Positions 29,926 through 45,969 of a DNA stretch of 64,000 nt are shown in pieces. The position numbers and the translations under genes were made by a program. Location of the stretch: NCBI RefSeq assembly GCF_026210795.1, contig NC_089433.1, forward strand, positions 868,001 to 932,000. Reading direction: 5' to 3'. The notes beneath the pieces were generated by a model, which had not been told where the DNA came from, made no database searches, and was given only the letters and a program-made list of their open reading frames with translations. This DNA comes from Rhizophagus irregularis. Taxonomy: Eukaryota. The number at the start of each line of letters is the position of its first letter. Within the stretch, counting starts at the first letter, position 1.

Positions 29926-31247
29926 CCTCCGAATATAATGTTTGGGATTAACCGTAAACCAGGTAATAAACAATCATACAATATTATTTAAATCATTAAC
30001 TTGGGCTTACCGTGAGCACAATTGTAGTATACATGATTCACTTATAAACTGAAAATCTCTAATTGGATTATATGTTTATTATGTTATTATCTTTATTTAA
30101 AAAGTTACTAATAATATTAACGCTTATTTAGTTTAGCTAGCCTAAGATTTTTCCCATTTCATTGAACTGACGTTCTTTATCATATTCTAAGAGCTGACCA
30201 TAATGTTCAAATCACCGAATTCTTCTTCGATCCCAGAAAAACTTTTGAATCTTTTATCCAAAATGATTATCTTGAACCGAAGTACAAATTTGGAAGCGAG
30301 GGATTAAATGGATTCGCTCAAAATCCTGAACTTTCTTCTGATTTTACAAACAAGAGTATCCAGAATTTAATTACGCCTTTTGTACTGAACCATCATCATG
30401 TAACATTAATTTGAGCGTTATTTTAGAGAATCGATTAAAAAGAACATTTACAAGTAAATTAACTAATAATGGCTGTCAGTTTTTAGTATAGCACATAAAT
30501 TTTACAATGAAGCTATGAAAATTTTTTTGTTTTTGAGAAGTGGAGCCAAAATATATATTTTTTACTATTTGATAAATATTTGGTTTGACCTCTATTTGCA
30601 TCAACAAATTTGAATTTCATATCAATAACCTTTCTAATAATTATGCTATTTTCAAAATTATTTCACTCCTTTCTAAATAAATTGAAAAATGGCTTGTAAA
30701 TTTTTTTCTTTTTTTGTTATTGCTATCTTCTTAATTTACTGCTTCAAAAACAACCCAAAGTTTTCGCTATGATTTGAGATTTGAGCGTAAAATGGACATG
30801 AAAAACTCATTATTTAAAGACAAATTTCATTCCACCTAAATATTATGTAAGTTGTTATTTACACCTCTATTATAATAATAAGCTCATCAATAACCTAAAA
30901 ATTATTTGGTAAGCCAAAAATACATATTTTAAAGTTTTCTTGTTAAGAATTAAAATAATGTGAAAATGACCATCATTTCAATTTTGGTAGTATTTTGCTT
31001 TAGTATTGATATTTAAAAACAAAATATTTAAAATTTCGGCATTTTTTATAAGAGAGGGATAAATTAATACAAATAATGTGATTTATGCTACGCCACAATG
31101 GGAGATTGACAGCTGTCAGCTGACACACATTTATACATGCAGTATCTCATGCAGTGCTTGATCAACATGCATATTGTATCACAATATACTCTTATTAATA
31201 AAGGCGTAAAAAAAAAAAATTTACATTGTTAAGAGAATTATATAGTA

Positions 31248-34200
31248 ATGGCTCAAATCAAAGGTAAATATAACATACTAAGCAGACTGAAATATTAAAA
31301 TTTTTATTTAATAATAAATAAATTTATTTATTAATAATTTAAATATTATCTATTACCTTACGTAATATACATATGATATGATTTAAATGAATTACATTCT
31401 TGTTTAAAAATTATATTAAACAATTAGCTCGTAAGTTAATAAGTTATTTTATAGTTTAATAATATTGGAATTGCTTATTTTATTATATTCTATATAACTA
31501 AATAATTTATTTAACGATTAATAATATTATATATATAGTTAGTAAGTTATCAGTTATTTAAATCTTTAGTTCTTTACTCTATTTTGCATAATATTCAAAT
31601 AACTAAATTCTTTGTTTAAATAACTATTCAATAATCTATTATGATACAGATGGTAAGTTACAATTCTTAAAAGTTATATTTACTTGTTTAATATTTTATA
31701 TAACTAATTATATTCTTTATTTAGATTGTAAGTAATATATTTTATTTACAGTATATAATATTATATTATTTATATGATTATATCTAACTAATTATAATAA
31801 TTAATAATACTACAGGGTGTAAGTTATATGTCATCTACATTATTTCTACTATTTGTATAGTTTAAACTAACTAAATCTATTTACAAACAAATTATTTGGT
31901 TATTTCTTTTAGTTCGTAAGCTGAGTTATTATTTAATTCTATTGTTATGTATGTATATAATATTTACATATAAACTAACTAAATTTTTATTTAAAAATTA
32001 TTTAATGATATAGGGGGTAAGTTATTATTTAATTCTATTATGCTATCAATATTTCTATTGAGTATATAATTTAAATTTTAAACTAATTAAAATCTTTATT
32101 TTAATAATATAGCTTGTAAGTTATTTATTTACTTCGACTATTATTTATTTATATAATAATAATATATAATTTAAACTAAAAATTCTCTATTTAAAAAATT
32201 ATTTAATAATATAGCTTGTAAGTTATTTATTTAATTCTATTATTGCTTGCATATTTATATATTATATATAATTTAAACTAACTAAATTTCTTATTTAAAC
32301 TTAATAATATAGGGAGTAAGTTATTTATTTAGTTCTATTTTATTATATATTTATATGCATTTTAAATTTTTTCAAAAAATTATTTTGTAATTTCTTTTAG
32401 TTGGTAAGTCATAAGTTATTTATTTAATTTTATTATTACATCTTTATAATATTTATACATAATTCACATAATTTAACCTAACTAAATTCTTTATTTGGTA
32501 ATTTATTTTAGAACGTAAGTTATTATTTATTTAATTCTATTAGTATATATTTATATACTGTATTATTTATAATGTTTACGCATAATTTATAATTAAATTT
32601 TTTAATTAAAAAATTATATGATAATTTATTTTAGAACGTAAGTTATAGTTATTTATTTAATTTTATTTTTAAATATTTATAATATTTACATATAATTTAA
32701 ATTATGTAAATTCTTTATTTAAAAAATTAATTAATAACATAGGGGGTAAGTTATTTATTTAATTTTATTATTATATATTTGTATAATGTTTGCATACAGT
32801 TTAAGTTAACTAAATTCTTTATTTAAAAAATTATTTGGTAATTTCTTTTAGAACGTAAGTTATAAGTGATTTATTTAATTTATTATTATATATTTAGGAC
32901 ATTACAACTTATTTGTTAGTTTAATGTACTGATTCTTCTCTATTTTTTAAAAATCTAAAATATAATGAACATATAATAACATTTGTTTAAATACTTTCTT
33001 TAAATTATGATTATTTGAAATTTTCTGAAATTTTCTATATTCTCAAAATTTCTTAGATTTATTTAATCTATTTAATGAAAATTCCTTCTCCCACTTTATA
33101 GAAAATTCTGATGTTAAACAAACAATTAAATTGAAATGAACTTATATAATGTTTAAATGTAATTTAAATTAACTAAACTTTATTTAAATAATTTCATTTA
33201 GATCGTAAGTTATAAGTTATTATTCAATTGTATTATTACACATTTGCAGTACATTATATTTACATATAATTCAAACAAACTAAATTCCTTATTAAAAAAA
33301 ATTATTTAATAATATAGGAAGTAAGTTATTCATTTAATTCTACTATTATTATATACTTATGTAATATATTTATATATGTAATTTAAATTAACTAAATTCT
33401 TTATTTAAAAAAATTATTTAATATTATACTAGGGAGTAAGTTATTTATTTAATTTTATTATTATTACATAATTATATAATATTTACATATAATTTAATGA
33501 ATTAAATTCTTCATTCAAAAAAATTATTTAATAATAGAGAGTAAGTAATTTTATTATTACATATTTATAATATTTACATATAATTTAAACTAACTAAATT
33601 CTTTATTTAAAAATTATTTTGTAATATCTTTTAGTTGGTAAGTTATAAGTTTTTTGTTTAATTTTTTTTATTGTATTTGTATATAATGCTTATGTATAAT
33701 TTAATTCTTTATTCACAAATTATTTAATAATATAGCTCGTAAGTTATTTATTTAATTCTATGATTTATTATATTTTTATAATTTTTATATAATATTTGCA
33801 TATAATTTAAATTAATTAAGTTCTTTATTTAAAAATTATTTGGTAATTTTTTTTAGAACGTAAGTTATAACTTATTTATTAATTCTATTATTATAAATTT
33901 GTATAATGTAATCTAAATTAACTATTTAAAAATTATTTAATAATAGTTGGTAAGTTTTAGGTTATTTATTTAATTCTACGATACATATATCTATTTAAAC
34001 TAATTAAATTCATAATTTAAAATTTTTTTAATAATATAGAAAGTAAGTTACTATTTAATTTTATTATTATATATTTATACAATATTTTACATATAATTTA
34101 AACTAAATTCTTTATTTAAAATTTATTTATTAATTAATATAGGAGGTAAGTTATTTATTTAATTATATATAGGGATGGCAACGGTCAGTTATAGTCGGTC

Positions 34201-35427
34201 ATGGTCAGTTATAATCGATTATAGCAATTTAAACGGTCAGTTATGGTCGGTTAAAAATTGGTTAAACGGTCAGTTAAATGGTCGGTTATACCATTTTACT
34301 TAAATAATTGGTTAAATGGTCAGTTAAATGGTTAAAAATGGTCGGTCAGATGTTAAAACGGTTGGTTATGATCATAACTGTTGCCATCCCTAATTATATA
34401 TTATATAAAATTTATATATAATTTAAACTAATTAAATTCTATATGAAATTATTTAATAATATAGCAAGTAAGTTATTTATCTAATTCTCAATAGTTAATA
34501 TATTTACGTATATTTACATATAATCTAAACTAACTAAATTATTCAAAAATTATAGCTCGTAAGTTATTTATTTTCTATCATTATATATTTATATAATATT
34601 TGCATATAATTTAAACTAACTAAATTCTTTAATAAATTGTTAATATTATAGGAAGTAAGTTATTATTATTACATATTTATATAATATACATAATATTTAT
34701 GTATAATTTAAACTAATTAAATTCTTTAATCTTTATATAAAAATTATTCAATAATATAGCTTGTAAGTTAATTATTTAATTTTACTATTACATAATTATA
34801 TAATATTTATATATAATTTAAACTAATTAAATTTTTTATTTAAAAAAAAACTTAATAATAGATGGTAAGTTATTTATTCAATTCTAATATTATGTATTTA
34901 TATAATGATTGCATATAATTTATATTAATTTAATTCTTTATTTAATAAATTATTTAATAATATAGAAAGTAAGAATTTTAATATATATTTAGTATATAAT
35001 ATTTTTATATTTAAAAGTTAAACTAACTAAATATTTTATTTAAAAATTATTTAATCAAATAGATTGTAAGTTAGTAGTTATTTAATTTTATTACATATAA
35101 TTATATAATTTGTATATAATTAAACTAACTAAATTCTTAAAAAATTTAGATTGTAAATTATTATTTAATTTTGTTATCATAATACTTACATAAAATTTAA
35201 ACTAATTAAATCCTTTATTTAAAAAAATTATTTAATAATATAGGGGGTAAGTTATTTACTTAATTTTGTTATTGTATGTTTATATAATTTAAAATAACAA
35301 CTTTTTATTTTAAAACTATTTAATAATATAGGAGGTAGGTTATTTATTATATATTTATATAATATTTATATATGATTCATTTAATTAATTGAATTCTTTA
35401 TTAACAAAATTATTAATAATGTAGAGA
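31248..35427 (+). CDS. Candidate gene built from a 16-nt first exon plus 36 three-nucleotide micro-exons (3' end not found)
   Basis: Exon 1 ATGGCTCAAATCAAAG|GTAAAT, then 36 YAG-NNN-GT units about 100 bp apart with CTAAC/CTAAT branch-like motifs. Joined frame is MAQIKALNDWFRASWIEQREHRRKIAQLERATRTYENYWGE, with no stop. Confidence 0.7.
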
Positions 35428-35440
35428 GTGAGTTTTAATT
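31400..35440 (+). repeat. Degenerate ~100-bp tandem repeat whose unit is one intron plus one 3-nt exon
   Basis: Recurring consensus GTAAGTTATTTATTTAATTCTATTA...ATATAATTTAAACTAACTAAATTCTTTATTTAAAAAATTATTTAATAATATAG-NNN. Confidence 0.92.
34170..34392. mobile_element. hAT-type MITE inside an intron of the micro-exon array
   Basis: TIR TAGGGATGGCAAC / GTTGCCATCCCTA, perfect 8-bp TSD ATTATATA, internal GGTCRGTTA repeats. Confidence 0.9.
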
Positions 35441-35471
35441 TTATTGTAGCATATTATTTAATGTTTATATA

Positions 35472-35970
35472 TGTTGTGCCTCAGATCGATTCATGCCTCA
35501 GATTGAAGCTCACGCACCTCACATTGAGATTGTCACCTGACGCACCTCATTTGAATCATTCAATAAAGTCTGTTATAAGTAAACTTTTTTTCTCATTAAT
35601 TAAACCACTTTTTGTAACATAAACAAACTTGTGCGCCATAATGAGTTACATGTTTCCTGAAATCTTTATGTAAATCTGATTCATATTGAAGTTTATACTT
35701 GTATTTTATCTGAAAAATCATTAAATTTTAAGTCATTTTTCAAATGAAAAGATTTAATGAGCATGATTCTAATTAATCTGAAATTTTAGGATTGTATACT
35801 TAAAATAATGATAAATAAGTTTACTTAGTACTTAAAAATACATTAAAATTGGAAATTTTGATGTTTAATTATAGCTCATTTTTATTAGCAATTGAGGTGC
35901 GTCAGATGACAATCTCAAACTGAGGTGCGTGAGCTTCAATCTGAGGCAAGAATCGATCTGAGGCACAACA
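35472..35970. mobile_element. MITE with ~80-bp TIRs
   Basis: TGTTGTGCCTCAGATCGATTC...GAATCGATCTGAGGCACAACA, flanked by TATATA. Confidence 0.88.
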
Positions 35971-35977
35971 TATATAT

Positions 35978-36430
35978 CCCCTATTAAAGAAAAAATTTTC
36001 TAACGAAATGATCTATCAAAACAAAAATCTTTCCTATTAAAAATGGAATTTCCATCAAAAGAAAACAAATTCTCAACGAAATTATTTATCGAAAAAAACT
36101 CCCTATTAAAGAAAAATTCTTCAATGAAATTCTCTCAAAAAACCCCTTATTAAAAAGATGCTCCAATGAAATCTACCAAAAAATATAAATAAATTCTCAA
36201 AAGAAATTCTAAAACTCTAACGAGATTAACTATCAAAAAAAAGAAATTTCCCTATTATAAAAAAATTCTCCAATGAAATTTCTATCAAAAAACAAGCTCC
36301 GCTATTAAAAGAAATTCCCTATCAATAAAAAAATTCCCAACGAAATTTTTTTATCAAAAAATTTCCAAAGAAATTCTTATCAAAAAAAAAAGCTTTGCAT
36401 ATATTAAAAAAAAAAATATCTCTACCAAAA
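35978..36430. repeat. Degenerate minisatellite (CCCTATTAAA...CAAYGAAATT...TATCAAAA units)
   Basis: About 6-7 recurrences of cctattaaa spaced 45-105 bp apart. Confidence 0.55.
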
Positions 36431-36539
36431 ATTTTTTAAAACTACGCTAACCATGTGATTGACAAAATATGTTGCCGGGCAATGTCAGCTCGGTGCTGAT
36501 CTTTTTCAGCATCGGATAGCATTTTTTCAGACTCTGAGC

Positions 36540-37637
36540 TAGTGCCTCGACCCGTATCCGGATCAATCCGGATTGATCCGGATTTTTTTTTTTCGGATAT
36601 CCGGATTTTCACGGGTTTCATCCGGATTATAAACCGGATGAAAAATATCCGGTTTGACCCGGAATCCGGATGAAATTTTTATTATTTTTTTTTTTAATTA
36701 ATAATGATTTTGCTGATCCATAAAGATCTATATCTAAATTATATTATGGCTAATTATTTTTGCGCCTAATACCAATTTTTTTATTAAAATTTATTAAATT
36801 TATATTTGTTATATTAAACTTTTTAATACAGTAAGTTTAAGAAGATTTTTCAATTATAATTTATTTATTGAAGTTTGTATCAGATTTGTTTATTTAAATT
36901 TATACATTAACAAATAACAAATAATTTTAGATTTCACATTCAAACGTTCAAAAGAAAAAAAACTTTATATTATTTTTGTTACAACAAAATAATAATTATT
37001 GTTTTAAATGAAAAATTGTTCAATATTATAAATTTATATAATTATAACAACTTTTTTTAAAAATTAAAACTAGTGTTATATAATTTGATTCAAATGATTC
37101 TTTAATTTTTGAAAGAAGAAACAAATCCTTAAAAAATTGCCTTACTAACCCAACACATCTATTTATAGTAATCTTTAGCTGTATATAAAAATATCTTGTT
37201 TAAAATTTCATAATTAGTTAATTTACAAAGAAATGTTAAACAATATTCTGAGACAATGCTGAAATAATATGAAATTGTTTTAAAGAAAAGTATTTAATGA
37301 AATTGGAATTATGTAAATTTCGTGGTCTTGGATAATTTTGGCCAAATTTGTAATTCTGGCCGAAATTAACATCACGTGACACCGGGAAATAGTTTAGCCA
37401 CCGGGCAAAAAATTTTTTATCGGCTGGCATGAAAATTTAATGTTACACAATTTGTAATTCTGGCCGGCGTTATGAATTCTGGCCAGAATTATTGCCGATC
37501 ATTTGTAAATCCAATCCGGTTTCCGGTTTCTATCCGGATTATCTGATCCGGATTCAAAATCCGGGTCAATCCGGATATAATCCGGATTTTTTTTTTGTGT
37601 AATCCGGATGACGGTTTTCATCCGGGTCGAAGCACTA
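36540..37637 (-). mobile_element. 1.1-kb non-autonomous hAT element, copy B (inverted relative to 9,776-10,871)
   Basis: Near-identical reverse complement of copy A, with its own perfect 8-bp TSD CTCTGAGC. Confidence 0.92.
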
Positions 37638-37928: not shown

Positions 37929-39452
37929 ATGAAGAAAATTATTCTCGCTTTTGGCTCAACAGGCCTTGGCAAGACAACAATGGCTCATTTGCTTTGTGAA
38001 GCAAATGTTAAGGGTTCAAGTGGTATTGAATCTGCAACTAAAATAGCAGTATATTATGAAACAGATAAATATTTATATATTGATACTTGTGGATTTGGTG
38101 ATTCATCTGGTAAAACAGATGAAGAATTATTTCATGATATGATGTGTTTATTTCAAAGATATGGACAAAATAATATCTTTAATATCAATACAATATTATG
38201 GTTTTGTTCTGAGAGTGAAAGAGAGACAAGTCACTTACAACGTGAGGCTAATTTTATTCAACGTCTTGTCGAATATACTGATGAATGTAACCCAATAGAT
38301 TTATGGAAAAGTGTCTTGATTATAACAAAGGGCAATTTAAATTTGCGCAAATTAGTTGATGGACCAAAATCTGCTGCAAGGAATGCTTGTTGGGCTTTTT
38401 CTAATAAACAACATTACGAATTTAATGAAGATTCTTTCTTCGTTAAACACTTTCCATGTTGGATCTATGACACTGAAGGTATCACAGAAGAAAATGCACG
38501 TTGGGTTAAAATGGATTCTAAAACTCGTTTCGAATTTAATTGTTATCGTCAGGATGAAATAAAATCAAAAGTTCAACATTTGATTTCAAATTTTAGTCCA
38601 ATAACAATACGCTTTAAACAAGGAATATGTAAAAAATGCAATGTAATTGGGGATCCAAGGCTTTTCATCACACAATGTCATACCAAATCATTTTTTAAAC
38701 ATTCTATAAAAATCGAATATTTTCATCCTGAAGAAATTGTTCATTTTCATTCGGGAAGTAAGTTTCTTGTTCATGAACCTGATGAAAACTCAATAAAAAA
38801 GCTTTTTGAAAGTATATTCGATGGCGATCAAATTGAGATTCCTGTGTCTCAAGTTTCAAGTGAAATAGCAGAAAAAATTATTGAATCGTGCAAATTATTT
38901 AATAATCAAACAAATGCAGCACCAGAGTTACAACCAGAATTACAACCATCATTTATGTCACAAATAATTTCACACGCACCTCAAGCAGCATCAAATTTAT
39001 TACAAACAGTAGCGCCATTAGTGACGACATTGGCCGTTCCCAGAATGGCACCTAGTACTGTAACTTCTACTTATCTTCTTTCAGGTCCTTCAGTAGCCTT
39101 CCTTGTCATTTGCTCCGAAAGAAATAAGTGTTGTTATGAGGCAAAAAATATCTCATGTAAAAGGTGTAAAAAATTGATTGAAGAAATAAATGAAATAGGC
39201 TGTATTGAAAAATGTGATAATTGTAAAAAAGAATGGATAGAAACTGGTTGTGCAACTGGATATGGATGTTGTAAACAAGAAGAGGGAAAGCTCGGATGTC
39301 AAGCACATGAAAGATGCACAATATGTGATGAAGCTGCGATCGAATTAAATTCCCAAGGATGTACGGAATTTTGCGTGAAGTGCAAAGAAATGTGGAATAT
39401 TACACCAGGCTGTGATTCCGCTTCCAAACACGATGTGTTGATAATGGATTGA
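37929..39452 (+). CDS. P-loop GTPase (AIG1/GIMAP- or MMR_HSR1-like) with Cys-rich C-terminal region
   Basis: 507-aa single-exon ORF. G1 GSTGLGKT, G2 SAT, G3 DTCG; many CxxC motifs in the last ~120 aa. Confidence 0.85.
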   Translation: MKKIILAFGSTGLGKTTMAHLLCEANVKGSSGIESATKIAVYYETDKYLYIDTCGFGDSSGKTDEELFHDMMCLFQRYGQNNIFNINTILWFCSESERETSHLQREANFIQRLVEYTDECNPIDLWKSVLIITKGNLNLRKLVDGPKSAARNACWAFSNKQHYEFNEDSFFVKHFPCWIYDTEGITEENARWVKMDSKTRFEFNCYRQDEIKSKVQHLISNFSPITIRFKQGICKKCNVIGDPRLFITQCHTKSFFKHSIKIEYFHPEEIVHFHSGSKFLVHEPDENSIKKLFESIFDGDQIEIPVSQVSSEIAEKIIESCKLFNNQTNAAPELQPELQPSFMSQIISHAPQAASNLLQTVAPLVTTLAVPRMAPSTVTSTYLLSGPSVAFLVICSERNKCCYEAKNISCKRCKKLIEEINEIGCIEKCDNCKKEWIETGCATGYGCCKQEEGKLGCQAHERCTICDEAAIELNSQGCTEFCVKCKEMWNITPGCDSASKHDVLIMD

Positions 39453-43751: not shown

Positions 43752-44087
43752 TATGGAGTTTGATAAATTTTTTATAATAAACACATGTTTCTTTTATGGT
43801 GTATAAATACGGGTTATATAATAATATTTATTATTTATAGTTAGATAATAGGTCTTTTAATACATGCACATTTACTTCCATTTTATAATTTTAAGTATTG
43901 TTATCAGTTATAAAAGGCGTAAAATTGAATTAATAATACAAAGTTAATTGCATCGATCCCTTTTTTAACAATGAATGACACAAAGCCATTGTTAAAAAGT
44001 CTTTATGTAGTTACTTTAAAATCAGTACAATGTAAGAGTTTTATCTGTATAAAAACATAAAAAAGGAAAAAAAAAGAAAAGTTTAGT

Positions 44088-45969
44088 ATGCAAAAAAATA
44101 TTAAAAATAATTTTAAAGATAATAATGATCATAAGATTCTTGAAAGAGAATCTCTAGAACATAATTTGTTGAATAAAATTCATTATAAAAAAGAATCTTC
44201 AGAAAACATTAAGCTTGATAATTATTACGAAAAAGATATAGCTAATAAAGAATTCGGGGTTTGTTTTAATTGTAATAAACCACAGACTGAAGAAAATTGG
44301 TGTTTAAATTGTAATTCTAAATTTTTTCAAAAAGAATTCAATAATTGGAGAAGTGAAAATATGCATATAGATAAATTTATACAAGAAGCTCAATTAAATG
44401 CAAGAAATAATAACGAAGTTATAGAATGGATTAATTATGATCATTTTATAAATATACAATATATTACTCGAGGAGGATTTAGTATTATTTATGGGGCTGA
44501 TTGGTTAGATGGAAGTATTGATTGTTGGAATTATGAAAAGGAAAATTGGAATAGAATTACTCAAAAAAATGGAATTCGTGTAATACTTAAGAGTTTAAAC
44601 GATTCTTCGAATATTCACGAAGATTTCCTAAATGAGCGAGGTAATTATTTTTTTAATTTTTAATTTTTTAAATGGCATTTTTTTTTTTATTAATATAAAT
44701 ATATATATACCATTTTTAGTTGAAAAATCATTTAAAATTTTTATATTCAGCTATAAATAATTATTCAAATTTTGTGAAAATTTATGGAATAACTAAAGAT
44801 CCAAATACATCAAATTATATAATTGTTTTACAAGAAATGCCAATGGGTAATTTAAGATCTATACTTATGATAAAAAAATGGAATCAAAATGATAAATATT
44901 ATAATATATACGAGATAGCAAGTTCACTTTCCGCTTTGCATAAATGTGATCTAGTTCACGGTGATTTACATAGTGGAAATATACTTTTTAAAGATATATT
45001 TACTGCTTATATAAGCGATTTTGGATTAAGTAAACCTGCGGATCAATCTATTGATTATAATGTGATTTCTGGAGTACTTCCATATATTGCTCCAGAAGTT
45101 TTACGTGGAAAACCGTATACAAAAGCTGCTGATATTTATAGTCTTGGTGTTATTATGTGGGAATTTACATCTGGTGTTCCTGCTTTTAATAATAGACAGG
45201 ATGATTTTAATCTTTCCTTAGATATTTGTAGAGGATTAAGACCAGAAATTATAGAAGGAACAGAACCTGATTATGAAGAATTAATGAAAAGATGTTGGAA
45301 TACTGATCCCAATAAAAGACCAACTGCAGATGAATTAGCAGAAATATTTGACGTGTTATCTACTAAATTTATAATGCTAATGAAGGATGAAGAAAGAAAG
45401 TCAGTACCAGCAGTACCAGCAATACCAGGTAAATAAGATTTTTTTTTCTTATATTAATTAAATTTAATCATTAATCGATTATTACTATTATAGAGAATAA
45501 ATCATATCATCCATTAACTTGCTATACAAGTAGAAAATTTGATTATTCTGTAAAGTTGAATGAAATTTTAAATCAAGAAGAATTAAGTTTTAAATTTACA
45601 ATAAATGAGAAAGATGATTATAAAGAAACAATATTAAGTGAAAGTTTAGGTAAGTATTACTTGTTTTTTTTTATTAATTTTAGGAGTTAGTATTAGTACT
45701 AGGTATAATGTATTATTTAATTAACTAAATAACTATGGTGATAAATAATCATTTGCCGCTATATAGTAAATGAATAGCAGAACCCTTTTATTAATACATT
45801 TTTATATTAATAACTTTTATAGAAAATTGTAAGATTTCTAGTACCATTTTAGGTAATTTACATTTTTTATTTAATGTTTATAATTTTTCATATTTTAAAT
45901 TATTATTTTTTTTTTAATTAATTATTTTTTTTTGTAGATATTAATCAAGAAAAAAGAGAAAAAAGTTAA
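44088..45969 (+). CDS. Tyrosine-kinase-like protein kinase (Glomeromycotina-expanded type), 5 exons; exon 1/2 junction ambiguous
   Basis: N-terminal CxxC...WCxxC, RGGFS, VILKSL, HGDLHSGN, SDFG, YIAPE, DIYSLG, C-terminal HPLTCYTSR. Exons at about 44088-44640, 44720 or 44751-45428, 45494-45649, 45823-45852, 45938-45969. Confidence 0.85.

What the first reader, a model, noticed from the sequence alone, without database searches (positions are those of the whole stretch)
31890..33880. Micro-exon cassettes fall into flank subtypes linked to their payload, suggesting assembly by cassette duplication
Seen: most units end ...TTTAATAATATAG and resume GTAAGTTATTTATTT (type A; payloads ctt, ctc, ggg, gga, gaa, gag, aaa). 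Eight units have ...TTTGGTAATTTCTTTTAG-like upstream and mostly GTAAGTTATAAGTT-like downstream flanks (type B: ttc 31913, ttg 32401, aac 32512, aac 32635, aac 32852, atc 33202, ttg 33635, aac 33857). All four aac exons are type B. The types are interspersed, not in blocks. Inference: the copied unit is centred on the exon (half-intron + triplet + half-intron) and is shuffled by unequal crossover or gene conversion between homologous introns. The protein would then have been built from a small library of triplet cassettes, rather than by introns inserting into an existing CDS.
Basis: partly seen in the sequence, partly recalled or inferred. Interest (0 to 1): 0.78.

Follow-up and report, generated by a model that had tools for sequence, protein, structure and literature searches.

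The report
Shuffled three-base exons fronting mycorrhizal kinases
A mycorrhizal fungus carries 36 predicted three-base exons between look-alike introns, and soil contigs hold dozens of related arrays with different triplet orders, sitting in front of kinase genes wherever the downstream DNA can be seen, so these are likely shuffled cassettes that would give the kinases a hypervariable front end.

Summary
Observation confirmed. There are 36 AG-NNN-GT units at 31428-35427. Left and right flank types are linked across the exon (Fisher p=1e-4), not across the intron (p=1.0). In 16 other arrays, units with the same triplet also have more alike flanks.

The array belongs to a family: 56 AT-rich metagenome loci have related introns and different triplet strings. 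In 12 of 15 with enough downstream DNA an AM-fungal tyrosine-kinase-like exon follows (two more by weaker evidence). The triplets are not codons: introns are phase 1, and 0 of 336 junction codons are stops (14.3 expected; de-duplicated set). One 98%-identical paralog pair diverges at a mid-intron breakpoint, as cassette insertion or exchange predicts. Contiguous paralogs have an unrelated Cys motif there, which argues against intron insertion into an old CDS.

Limits: splicing is not shown by RNA. The window copy lacks its kinase exon and is likely orphaned by transposons. A sensor role is inferred. Closest known: the 3-bp mini-exons of Tuber nank genes. This scan noted single-codon arrays in other fungi before; I found no AM-fungal case in its notes or the papers searched.

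The parts
31248..31263 (+). Predicted upstream exon, from an ATG to a phase-1 donor at 31264. It may instead be an 18-nt internal exon from the AG just before 31246.
   Evidence: Joins in an open frame to all 36 micro-exons. The same exon end and donor type precede the array in 13 of 28 other loci with over 200 nt upstream. Aligns with L058. No RNA depth in X20/X21.
31428..31818 (+). Constant part: micro-exons 1-5 with diverged introns. The junction of exons 4 and 5 makes a Trp seen near the start of many arrays.
   Evidence: In register with L058: 4 of 5 triplets identical, the second differs. Introns 1-5 are 68% identical to later introns, against 74% among the later ones. Phase-1 readings.
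31913..35427 (+). Variable part: micro-exons 6-36, homologous intron-triplet units of flank types A and B, with mosaics at exons 12, 23 and 32
   Evidence: Mean intron identity 0.74, maximum 0.87, no clear decay with distance (rho -0.09, p=0.07).
32855..33201 (+). Long intron 15 (347 nt) with extra AT-rich DNA and no donor-type site inside
34164..34398 (+). MITE-like insertion inside intron 25; both splice sites are left intact
   Evidence: Inverted arms 34164-34185 / 34377-34398, 86% complementary; intron length 319
35466..35976 (+). MITE-like element that interrupts the intron after exon 36; the intron's 3' half and any kinase exon are missing beyond it
   Evidence: 88-nt arms, 94% complementary. 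No further unit hit by nhmmer. No kinase hit in the next 2.5 kb or before 44319.
35436..35438 (+). In-frame TAA reached if the last donor is not used, which would end a roughly 45-residue peptide
   Evidence: Read directly from the sequence; use is untested
44061..45579 (+). Neighbouring contiguous kinase paralog with its own Cys-motif N-terminus; a comparison case, probably not spliced to the array
   Evidence: 51-58% identical to array-linked kinase exons; PF07714; Cys motif in ORF 44061-44663

Best explanation
This is a run of 36 predicted 3-nt exons in homologous introns, one member of a family of such arrays in arbuscular mycorrhizal fungi that likely grow and reshuffle by copying exon-centred units, and that would encode a hypervariable segment just in front of a tyrosine-kinase-like domain. 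Shown: the architecture, the flank-triplet linkage, the family, phase-1 continuity from the upstream exon through the array into the kinase exon in relatives, and the lack of stop codons across junctions. Inferred: recombination between the conserved intron middles (unequal crossover or conversion) inserts, deletes or swaps half-intron + triplet + half-intron units. Because every unit is phase 1-1 the frame survives, each residue is set by two adjacent units, and selection removes orders that make a stop. Also inferred: the segment, rich in Asp, Trp, Asn and Tyr, replaces the Cys motif of contiguous paralogs and serves as a variable binding or regulatory surface. The window copy itself has likely lost its kinase exon to transposon insertions.
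For: Exon-centred linkage in the window and in 16 other arrays: left flank vs same triplet r>0 in 14 of 16, Stouffer p=2e-12; exon-centred p=0.0025; intron-centred p=0.4; far-side controls p=0.5 and 0.8 at 20 nt. The nearest flank in another locus carries the same triplet 97.5 of 479 times against 25.7 expected. L033/L047 are 98.4% identical outside exons, then diverge at a mid-intron point with a different unit next. Stops at phase-1 junctions: 0 of 386 against 15.4+-3.0, and 0 of 336 against 14.3+-2.8 after removing 12 overlapping loci; phase 2 has 69. Kinase exon downstream in 12 of 15 loci with at least 400 nt, plus L016 (weak Pkinase hit below cutoff) and L051 (similar to L016). The last-exon join to the kinase exon is phase 1 in the 7 of 8 loci where it was resolved. 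Trp at junctions 36 against 18.4+-2.8, and 14 against 5.5 beyond the fifth exon. The pyrimidine-content vs first-base link has opposite sign in the window and in other loci. The window uses 17 distinct triplets, against a mean of 22.9 in ordinary window CDS.
Against: No spliced read was seen: poly(A) runs X20/X21 (about a quarter read) had near-zero depth on the upstream exon and no intron-skipping joint over the first 12 exons, and it is not shown that their strain has this locus. None of the 107 motif-bearing hits showed an array-type N-terminus. The window copy has no partner exon, and its own lack of stops is only P=0.04. Window units are at most 88% alike, so there is no sign of very recent shuffling here. 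Exon-centred linkage in other loci weakens at 35 nt (p=0.053). Most other loci come from four related assemblies and are not independent. Most pairs are not in orthologous register. Phase 0 is also nearly stop-free (4 of 460), and two public models read a similar stretch in the phase-0 alphabet.
Confidence: 0.72

Rival explanations
1. Old fixed peptide with homogenised introns: gene conversion copies intron DNA between units, and tracts can cross an exon only when the triplets are compatible. This links flanks to triplets without the protein being rebuilt from cassettes.
For: The linkage is confined to about 20-30 nt either side of the exon. The first five exons are conserved in register with L058. 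No block duplication or distance decay is seen in the window.
Against: Array lengths and triplet strings differ widely among paralogs, with no peptide alignment better than E=0.01 among array peptides. L033/L047 differ by a whole unit at 98% background identity. Runs of one triplet occur, such as AAC in L045 and ATG in L024.
Confidence: 0.13
2. Introner-like multiplication: one intron family inserted at every codon of an existing coding sequence.
For: Introns are homologous within and between loci, and 6602 contigs of one DNA run lie on the laid stretch, with depth highest over the array. One RNA loose end joins a homologous acceptor to unrelated sequence.
Against: Similarity does not follow whole introns. 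Contiguous paralogs carry an unrelated Cys motif in this position (23 of 107). Strict 3-nt spacing and a reduced triplet set are not expected from insertion into a fixed CDS.
Confidence: 0.05
3. Splice-signal compensation: particular exon bases need particular flanks, so the link is functional rather than inherited.
For: In the window, exons that start with A/T have more pyrimidine-rich acceptors (0.57 vs 0.49, p=0.012).
Against: Other loci show the opposite sign (0.47 vs 0.57, p=8e-10). The link is to identical triplets, not to Hamming distance.
Confidence: 0.04
4. Non-coding minisatellite derived from an intron-exon unit and never spliced as a series.
For: No RNA support. The window copy is cut by transposons and has no partner exon.
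Against: Perfect AG/GT retention at exactly 3 nt while intron bodies are about 26% diverged. Zero junction stops across the family. In-phase links to upstream and kinase exons. Insertions fall inside introns and spare the splice sites.
Confidence: 0.06

Closest known systems
Tuber melanosporum nank (NACHT-ankyrin NLR) genes with dozens of 3-bp mini-exons (Iotti et al. 2012; not seen, cited through passages of PMC4986451, PMC13449251 and PMC9815663)
   Same: Dozens of consecutive 3-nt exons in an expanded fungal gene family; a proposed way to diversify a recognition region
   Different: Here the partner is a tyrosine-kinase-like domain in Glomeromycotina, not an NLR in an ascomycete. The array is N-terminal. 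Exons are phase 1, so residues span two exons. The evidence here is for DNA-level cassette shuffling, whereas nank is reported to use alternative splicing. Whether nank arrays are phase 0 or shuffled was not checked.
Schistosoma micro-exon genes (MEGs) (PMC10526429, abstract start and passages)
   Same: Arrays of tiny exons linked to protein variation
   Different: MEG exons vary from 3 to 81 bp, introns reach 5 kb, and the products are secreted with signal peptides. Here exons are uniformly 3 nt in homologous introns of about 100 nt, fused to a kinase.
Brown algal NB-ARC-TPR and ROCO receptors with one repeat per exon (passage in PMC13449251)
   Same: Exon shuffling of a repeated exon-intron unit proposed to diversify receptors
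   Different: There each exon is a whole structural repeat; here the unit contributes one residue.
Fungal introner-like elements (PMC4457414, search listing only)
   Same: Families of sequence-related spliceosomal introns
   Different: Similarity here is exon-centred and tandem, and no intron-free version of the peptide was found.
Expanded AM-fungal kinase family, PF07714 (2,533 kinases in R. irregularis per passage in PMC10234402)
   Same: Array-linked exons are members
   Different: The usual contiguous Cys-motif N-terminus is replaced by an intron and the array.

Membership tests
Tuber nank mini-exon genes | Dozens of consecutive 3-bp exons | tested here: met
   36 in the window; up to 29 seen in a truncated relative
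Tuber nank mini-exon genes | NACHT and ankyrin domains | tested here: not met
   The partner in relatives is PF07714/PF00069 kinase; no partner in the window copy
Tuber nank mini-exon genes | Alternative splicing of the mini-exons shown in RNA | tested here: inconclusive
   No reads on this locus in two poly(A) runs; only the first 12 exons were covered by the lay
Schistosome MEGs | Symmetric micro-exons that keep the frame when skipped | tested here: met
   All 3 nt, phase 1-1; 55 of 595 possible skip junctions in the window would give a stop
Schistosome MEGs | N-terminal signal peptide, secreted product | tested here: not met
   By inspection only: upstream exons are short and acidic and the partner is a kinase; no predictor was run
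Schistosome MEGs | Variable exon sizes and long introns | tested here: not met
   Uniform 3-nt exons, 72-120 nt introns
Introner-like elements | Related introns at many loci | tested here: met
   Window introns align with other loci at 64-76%; many contigs of one DNA run match
Introner-like elements | The whole intron is the copied unit | tested here: not met
   Intron-centred linkage null, exon-centred significant
Introner-like elements | Intron-free homolog of the interrupted CDS | tested here: inconclusive
   None among 240 retrieved proteins; large databases were not searched with the spliced peptide
AM-fungal tyrosine-kinase-like gene (window copy) | Kinase exons in cis downstream of the array | tested here: not met
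   None within 2.5 kb; the nearest kinase at 44319 has its own N-terminus
AM-fungal tyrosine-kinase-like gene (family relatives) | Phase-matched kinase exon after the last micro-exon | tested here: met
   12 of 15 loci by tblastn; phase-1 join resolved in 7 of 8, one with an internal stop

The most novel reading that the evidence does not exclude
AM fungi run a residue-level diversity generator on their expanded kinases. A genome-wide library of single-triplet cassettes is exchanged within and between genes, possibly among the nuclei of one mycelium and further varied by exon skipping. It builds Trp/Tyr/Asp/Asn-rich variable segments that work like antigen-binding loops, for non-self or partner recognition.
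Probability: 0.3. Interest if true: 0.92.

Novelty: new variant of a known kind. Interest (0 to 1): 0.76.

Why it matters
AM fungi have thousands of kinases whose purpose and inputs are unclear, and how these multinucleate fungi make and use genetic variation is an open question. A hidden, frame-preserving, hypervariable module directly in front of a kinase subfamily is a concrete candidate for a recognition-diversifying device. It can be tested with existing long-read RNA and multi-isolate or single-nucleus genomes. It also points to an annotation gap: sibling public models differ widely at this position. The phase-1 layout, where each residue is made by two exons, is an extreme case for splicing mechanics.

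Tried and rejected
No whole genome is held, so arrays could not be counted genome-wide.

Phase-0 reading of the triplets as codons was rejected: donors and acceptors on both sides are phase 1, and the middle base is never C in the window.

The upstream-exon motif found nothing in metagenome contigs. The 11 viral hits showed no array like this one.

No RNA holder was listed. Laying two poly(A) runs and one RNA-like contig set gave only short partial matches from other loci.

Three protein searches returned tandem-domain proteins, genome gene models or metagenome fragments; no hit was shown to be transcript-derived or to carry a spliced array N-terminus.

The G-domain protein at 37929 as partner was rejected: it has an in-frame stop just upstream, and public relatives start at the same Met. 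The kinase at 44061 as partner was rejected: it has its own Cys N-terminus and lies 8.6 kb away past other genes.

The window peptide does not align significantly with public models P0226/P0220 (P=0.47 and 0.04). The Atlas search of the P0226 N-terminus gave only unnamed Mucoromycota clusters. A block-duplication or adjacency signal was looked for in the window and not found.

Full report
Observation. The + strand from 31428 to 35427 holds 36 units of AG, three bases, then a GT donor. All 33 GTAAG in the region have an AG exactly three bases upstream, against 2 of 74 elsewhere in the window. A two-unit pattern matched 12 times against 0 in 100 shuffles. Introns are 72-120 nt, mostly with a branch-point-like CTAAY or a close variant, and two are lengthened (347 and 319 nt), the second by a MITE-like element. 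A neighbouring protein clusters at 90% with Rhizophagus irregularis and R. diaphanus proteins, so the host is an AM fungus of that group.

For exons 6-36, left and right flank types are linked across the exon (7/1/2/21, p=1e-4) and not across the intron (p=1.0) (types set after inspection). Label-free Mantel tests give r=0.22-0.30 (p=0.002-0.004) for 15-20 nt flanks across the exon, non-significant at 30-40 nt, and negative r across the intron. Units with identical triplets have closer flanks on both sides (p=0.001-0.002), while controls with the far-side triplet are null. A graded triplet distance gave no significant link. Introns 6-35 average 74% identity (maximum 87%) with no clear decay with distance, so no simple tandem block history can be read.

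The family. Of the loci held, 56 are AT-rich arrays with 460 exons called; most come from four assemblies with related accession prefixes, so they are not independent samples. Their introns align with the window's at 64-76%. Where upstream DNA exists, an exon ending like the window's 31248-31263 exon precedes the array in 13 of 28. Where at least 400 nt lie downstream, 12 of 15 hit AM-fungal kinase exons; L016 has a sub-cutoff Pkinase hit and L051 resembles it; L043 has none. The kinase is PF07714, with named relatives in Rhizophagus and Funneliformis. In 16 de-duplicated loci with at least 9 exons, left flank tracks the identical triplet (r>0 in 14 of 16, combined p=2e-12), right flank more weakly (p=0.003), exon-centred linkage is p=0.0025 at 20 nt and 0.053 at 35 nt, and intron-centred linkage and both controls are null. 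Flanks predict the triplet across loci too (97.5 of 479 against 25.7), though shared constant exons and close paralogs inflate this. L033 and L047 are 98.4% identical outside exons, match through two exons and most of the following intron, then diverge at a mid-intron point where a different acceptor-plus-triplet follows. L058 matches the window's first five exons in register and then goes its own way, which defines a constant 5' part and a variable part.

Reading frame. Upstream donors and downstream kinase acceptors are phase 1, so each codon is the last base of one exon plus the first two of the next. In that frame 0 of 386 junction codons are stops, against 15.4+-3.0 for within-locus shuffles, while phase 2 has 69. 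After dropping 12 overlapping loci it is 0 of 336 against 14.3+-2.8. The window gives an open 41-codon frame from the ATG at 31248 (P=0.04 on its own). Junction residues are rich in Asp, Trp, Asn and Tyr, and Trp exceeds the shuffle expectation even beyond the fifth exon (14 against 5.5). Inherited adjacent pairs could contribute to that excess. Phase 0 is also nearly stop-free (4 of 460), which is unexplained. Public models POG70100.1 and POG71973.1 carry a phase-0-like stretch at this position and POG80810.1 a weakly phase-1-like one, while sibling models have little or nothing there. Their DNA could not be fetched, so they are hints only.

Against intron insertion and compensation. Contiguous paralogs, including the window's own kinase at 44061, have a Cys-x2-Cys motif pair in this position (23 of 107), and no array peptide aligned well with the 240 proteins then held. 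The spliced peptide was not searched against the large databases, so a contiguous homolog is not excluded. The link between acceptor pyrimidine content and the exon's first base has opposite signs in the window and in the other loci, which fits descent rather than a fixed splicing rule.

State of this copy. The intron after exon 36 is cut by an element with 88-nt inverted arms, and no unit remnant or kinase exon follows. DNA run X19 holds 30450-30975 and 31079-31332 without mismatches at low depth, and 6602 of its contigs lie on the laid stretch with depth highest over the array, which suggests many related units in the genome but gives no copy number. Poly(A) runs X20 and X21 showed no coverage of the upstream exon and no spliced joint over the first 12 exons; it is not shown that their strain has the locus, and the other 24 exons were not examined. 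Splicing is therefore inferred, not observed, and this copy may be a pseudogene or end in a short peptide at 35436.

Mechanism. Most likely (0.72), recombination between the conserved middles of homologous introns copies, deletes or swaps half-intron + triplet + half-intron units. Symmetric phase keeps the frame, selection removes stop-forming orders, and the result is a variable segment between an acidic N-terminus and the kinase. A role in recognition is inferred from position, variability, composition and analogy, and I put the strong form at 0.3.

Comparison and novelty. The closest known case is the Tuber nank family with dozens of 3-bp mini-exons diversified by alternative splicing. I saw this only in passages of PMC4986451, PMC13449251 and PMC9815663, not in the original paper. 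It works like nank in architecture but is not a member, since the partner is a kinase. MEGs (PMC10526429, passages) differ in exon sizes and secretion. Passages of the R. irregularis long-read genome paper matching exon, intron, kinase or isoform do not mention such arrays (PMC10234402; supplements not seen). Searches listed no report of them in AM fungi; most subscription journals are outside the library. Earlier scan notes describe single-codon arrays in other fungi but none by sequence or words in AM fungi. GC-richer fungal contigs in my scan carry arrays open in phase 0 instead, which suggests separate origins. Verdict: real, first reading supported and extended, new variant of a known kind, interest 0.76.

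Noticed in passing
L015, L023, L040, L046, L056, L065, L093, L100, L101, L113, L125: GC-richer (37-47%) fungal-type contigs with arrays of 3-nt exons in introns of about 80 nt that are open in phase 0 and broken in phase 1; L023 has 35 such exons. Possibly nank-like or independent systems.
   Followed up: partly
P0220 (POG70100.1), P0234 (POG71973.1), P0378, P0226 (POG80810.1): Public R. irregularis kinase models with 10-37 residue stretches at the array position in the phase-0 alphabet (first three) or weakly in the phase-1 alphabet (P0226); sibling models lack them.
   Followed up: partly
All AT-rich arrays: The triplet alphabet is almost stop-free in phase 0 as well (4 of 460), although the genes appear to use phase 1. 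Unexplained.
   Followed up: no
L087, after the last 3-nt exon: An apparent 1-nt exon (AG-T-GTAAG) precedes a degenerate kinase acceptor. A few 2-nt candidates also occur in gaps of L039, L052 and L080.
   Followed up: no
L039:35-400: A TPR-repeat exon lies directly upstream of a 3-nt exon array, so arrays may join other domain types.
   Followed up: partly
window 37929-39452 (+): Intronless 507-aa P-loop G-domain protein with a Cys-rich C-terminus, no Pfam hit at E 0.001, conserved in Rhizophagus.
   Followed up: partly
window 30689-30846 (+): Short ORF with a hydrophobic, signal-peptide-like start that ends early; two donor-like sites at 30847 and 30909 follow. Relation to the array unknown.
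   Followed up: no
window 36566-37576 and 35975-36450: A third inverted-repeat element and a degenerate A-rich repeat tract follow the MITE that cuts the array.
   Followed up: no
window 32216, run X20 loose end: Six poly(A) reads from another locus match the unit's acceptor and continue into unrelated coding-like sequence, so a homologous intron may precede an ordinary exon elsewhere.
   Followed up: no
L020, L037, L064, L092, L127: Tandem 28-nt units, each with an AG-CCT-GTAAG core, in GC-richer contigs; could be micro-intron arrays or plain repeats.
   Followed up: no
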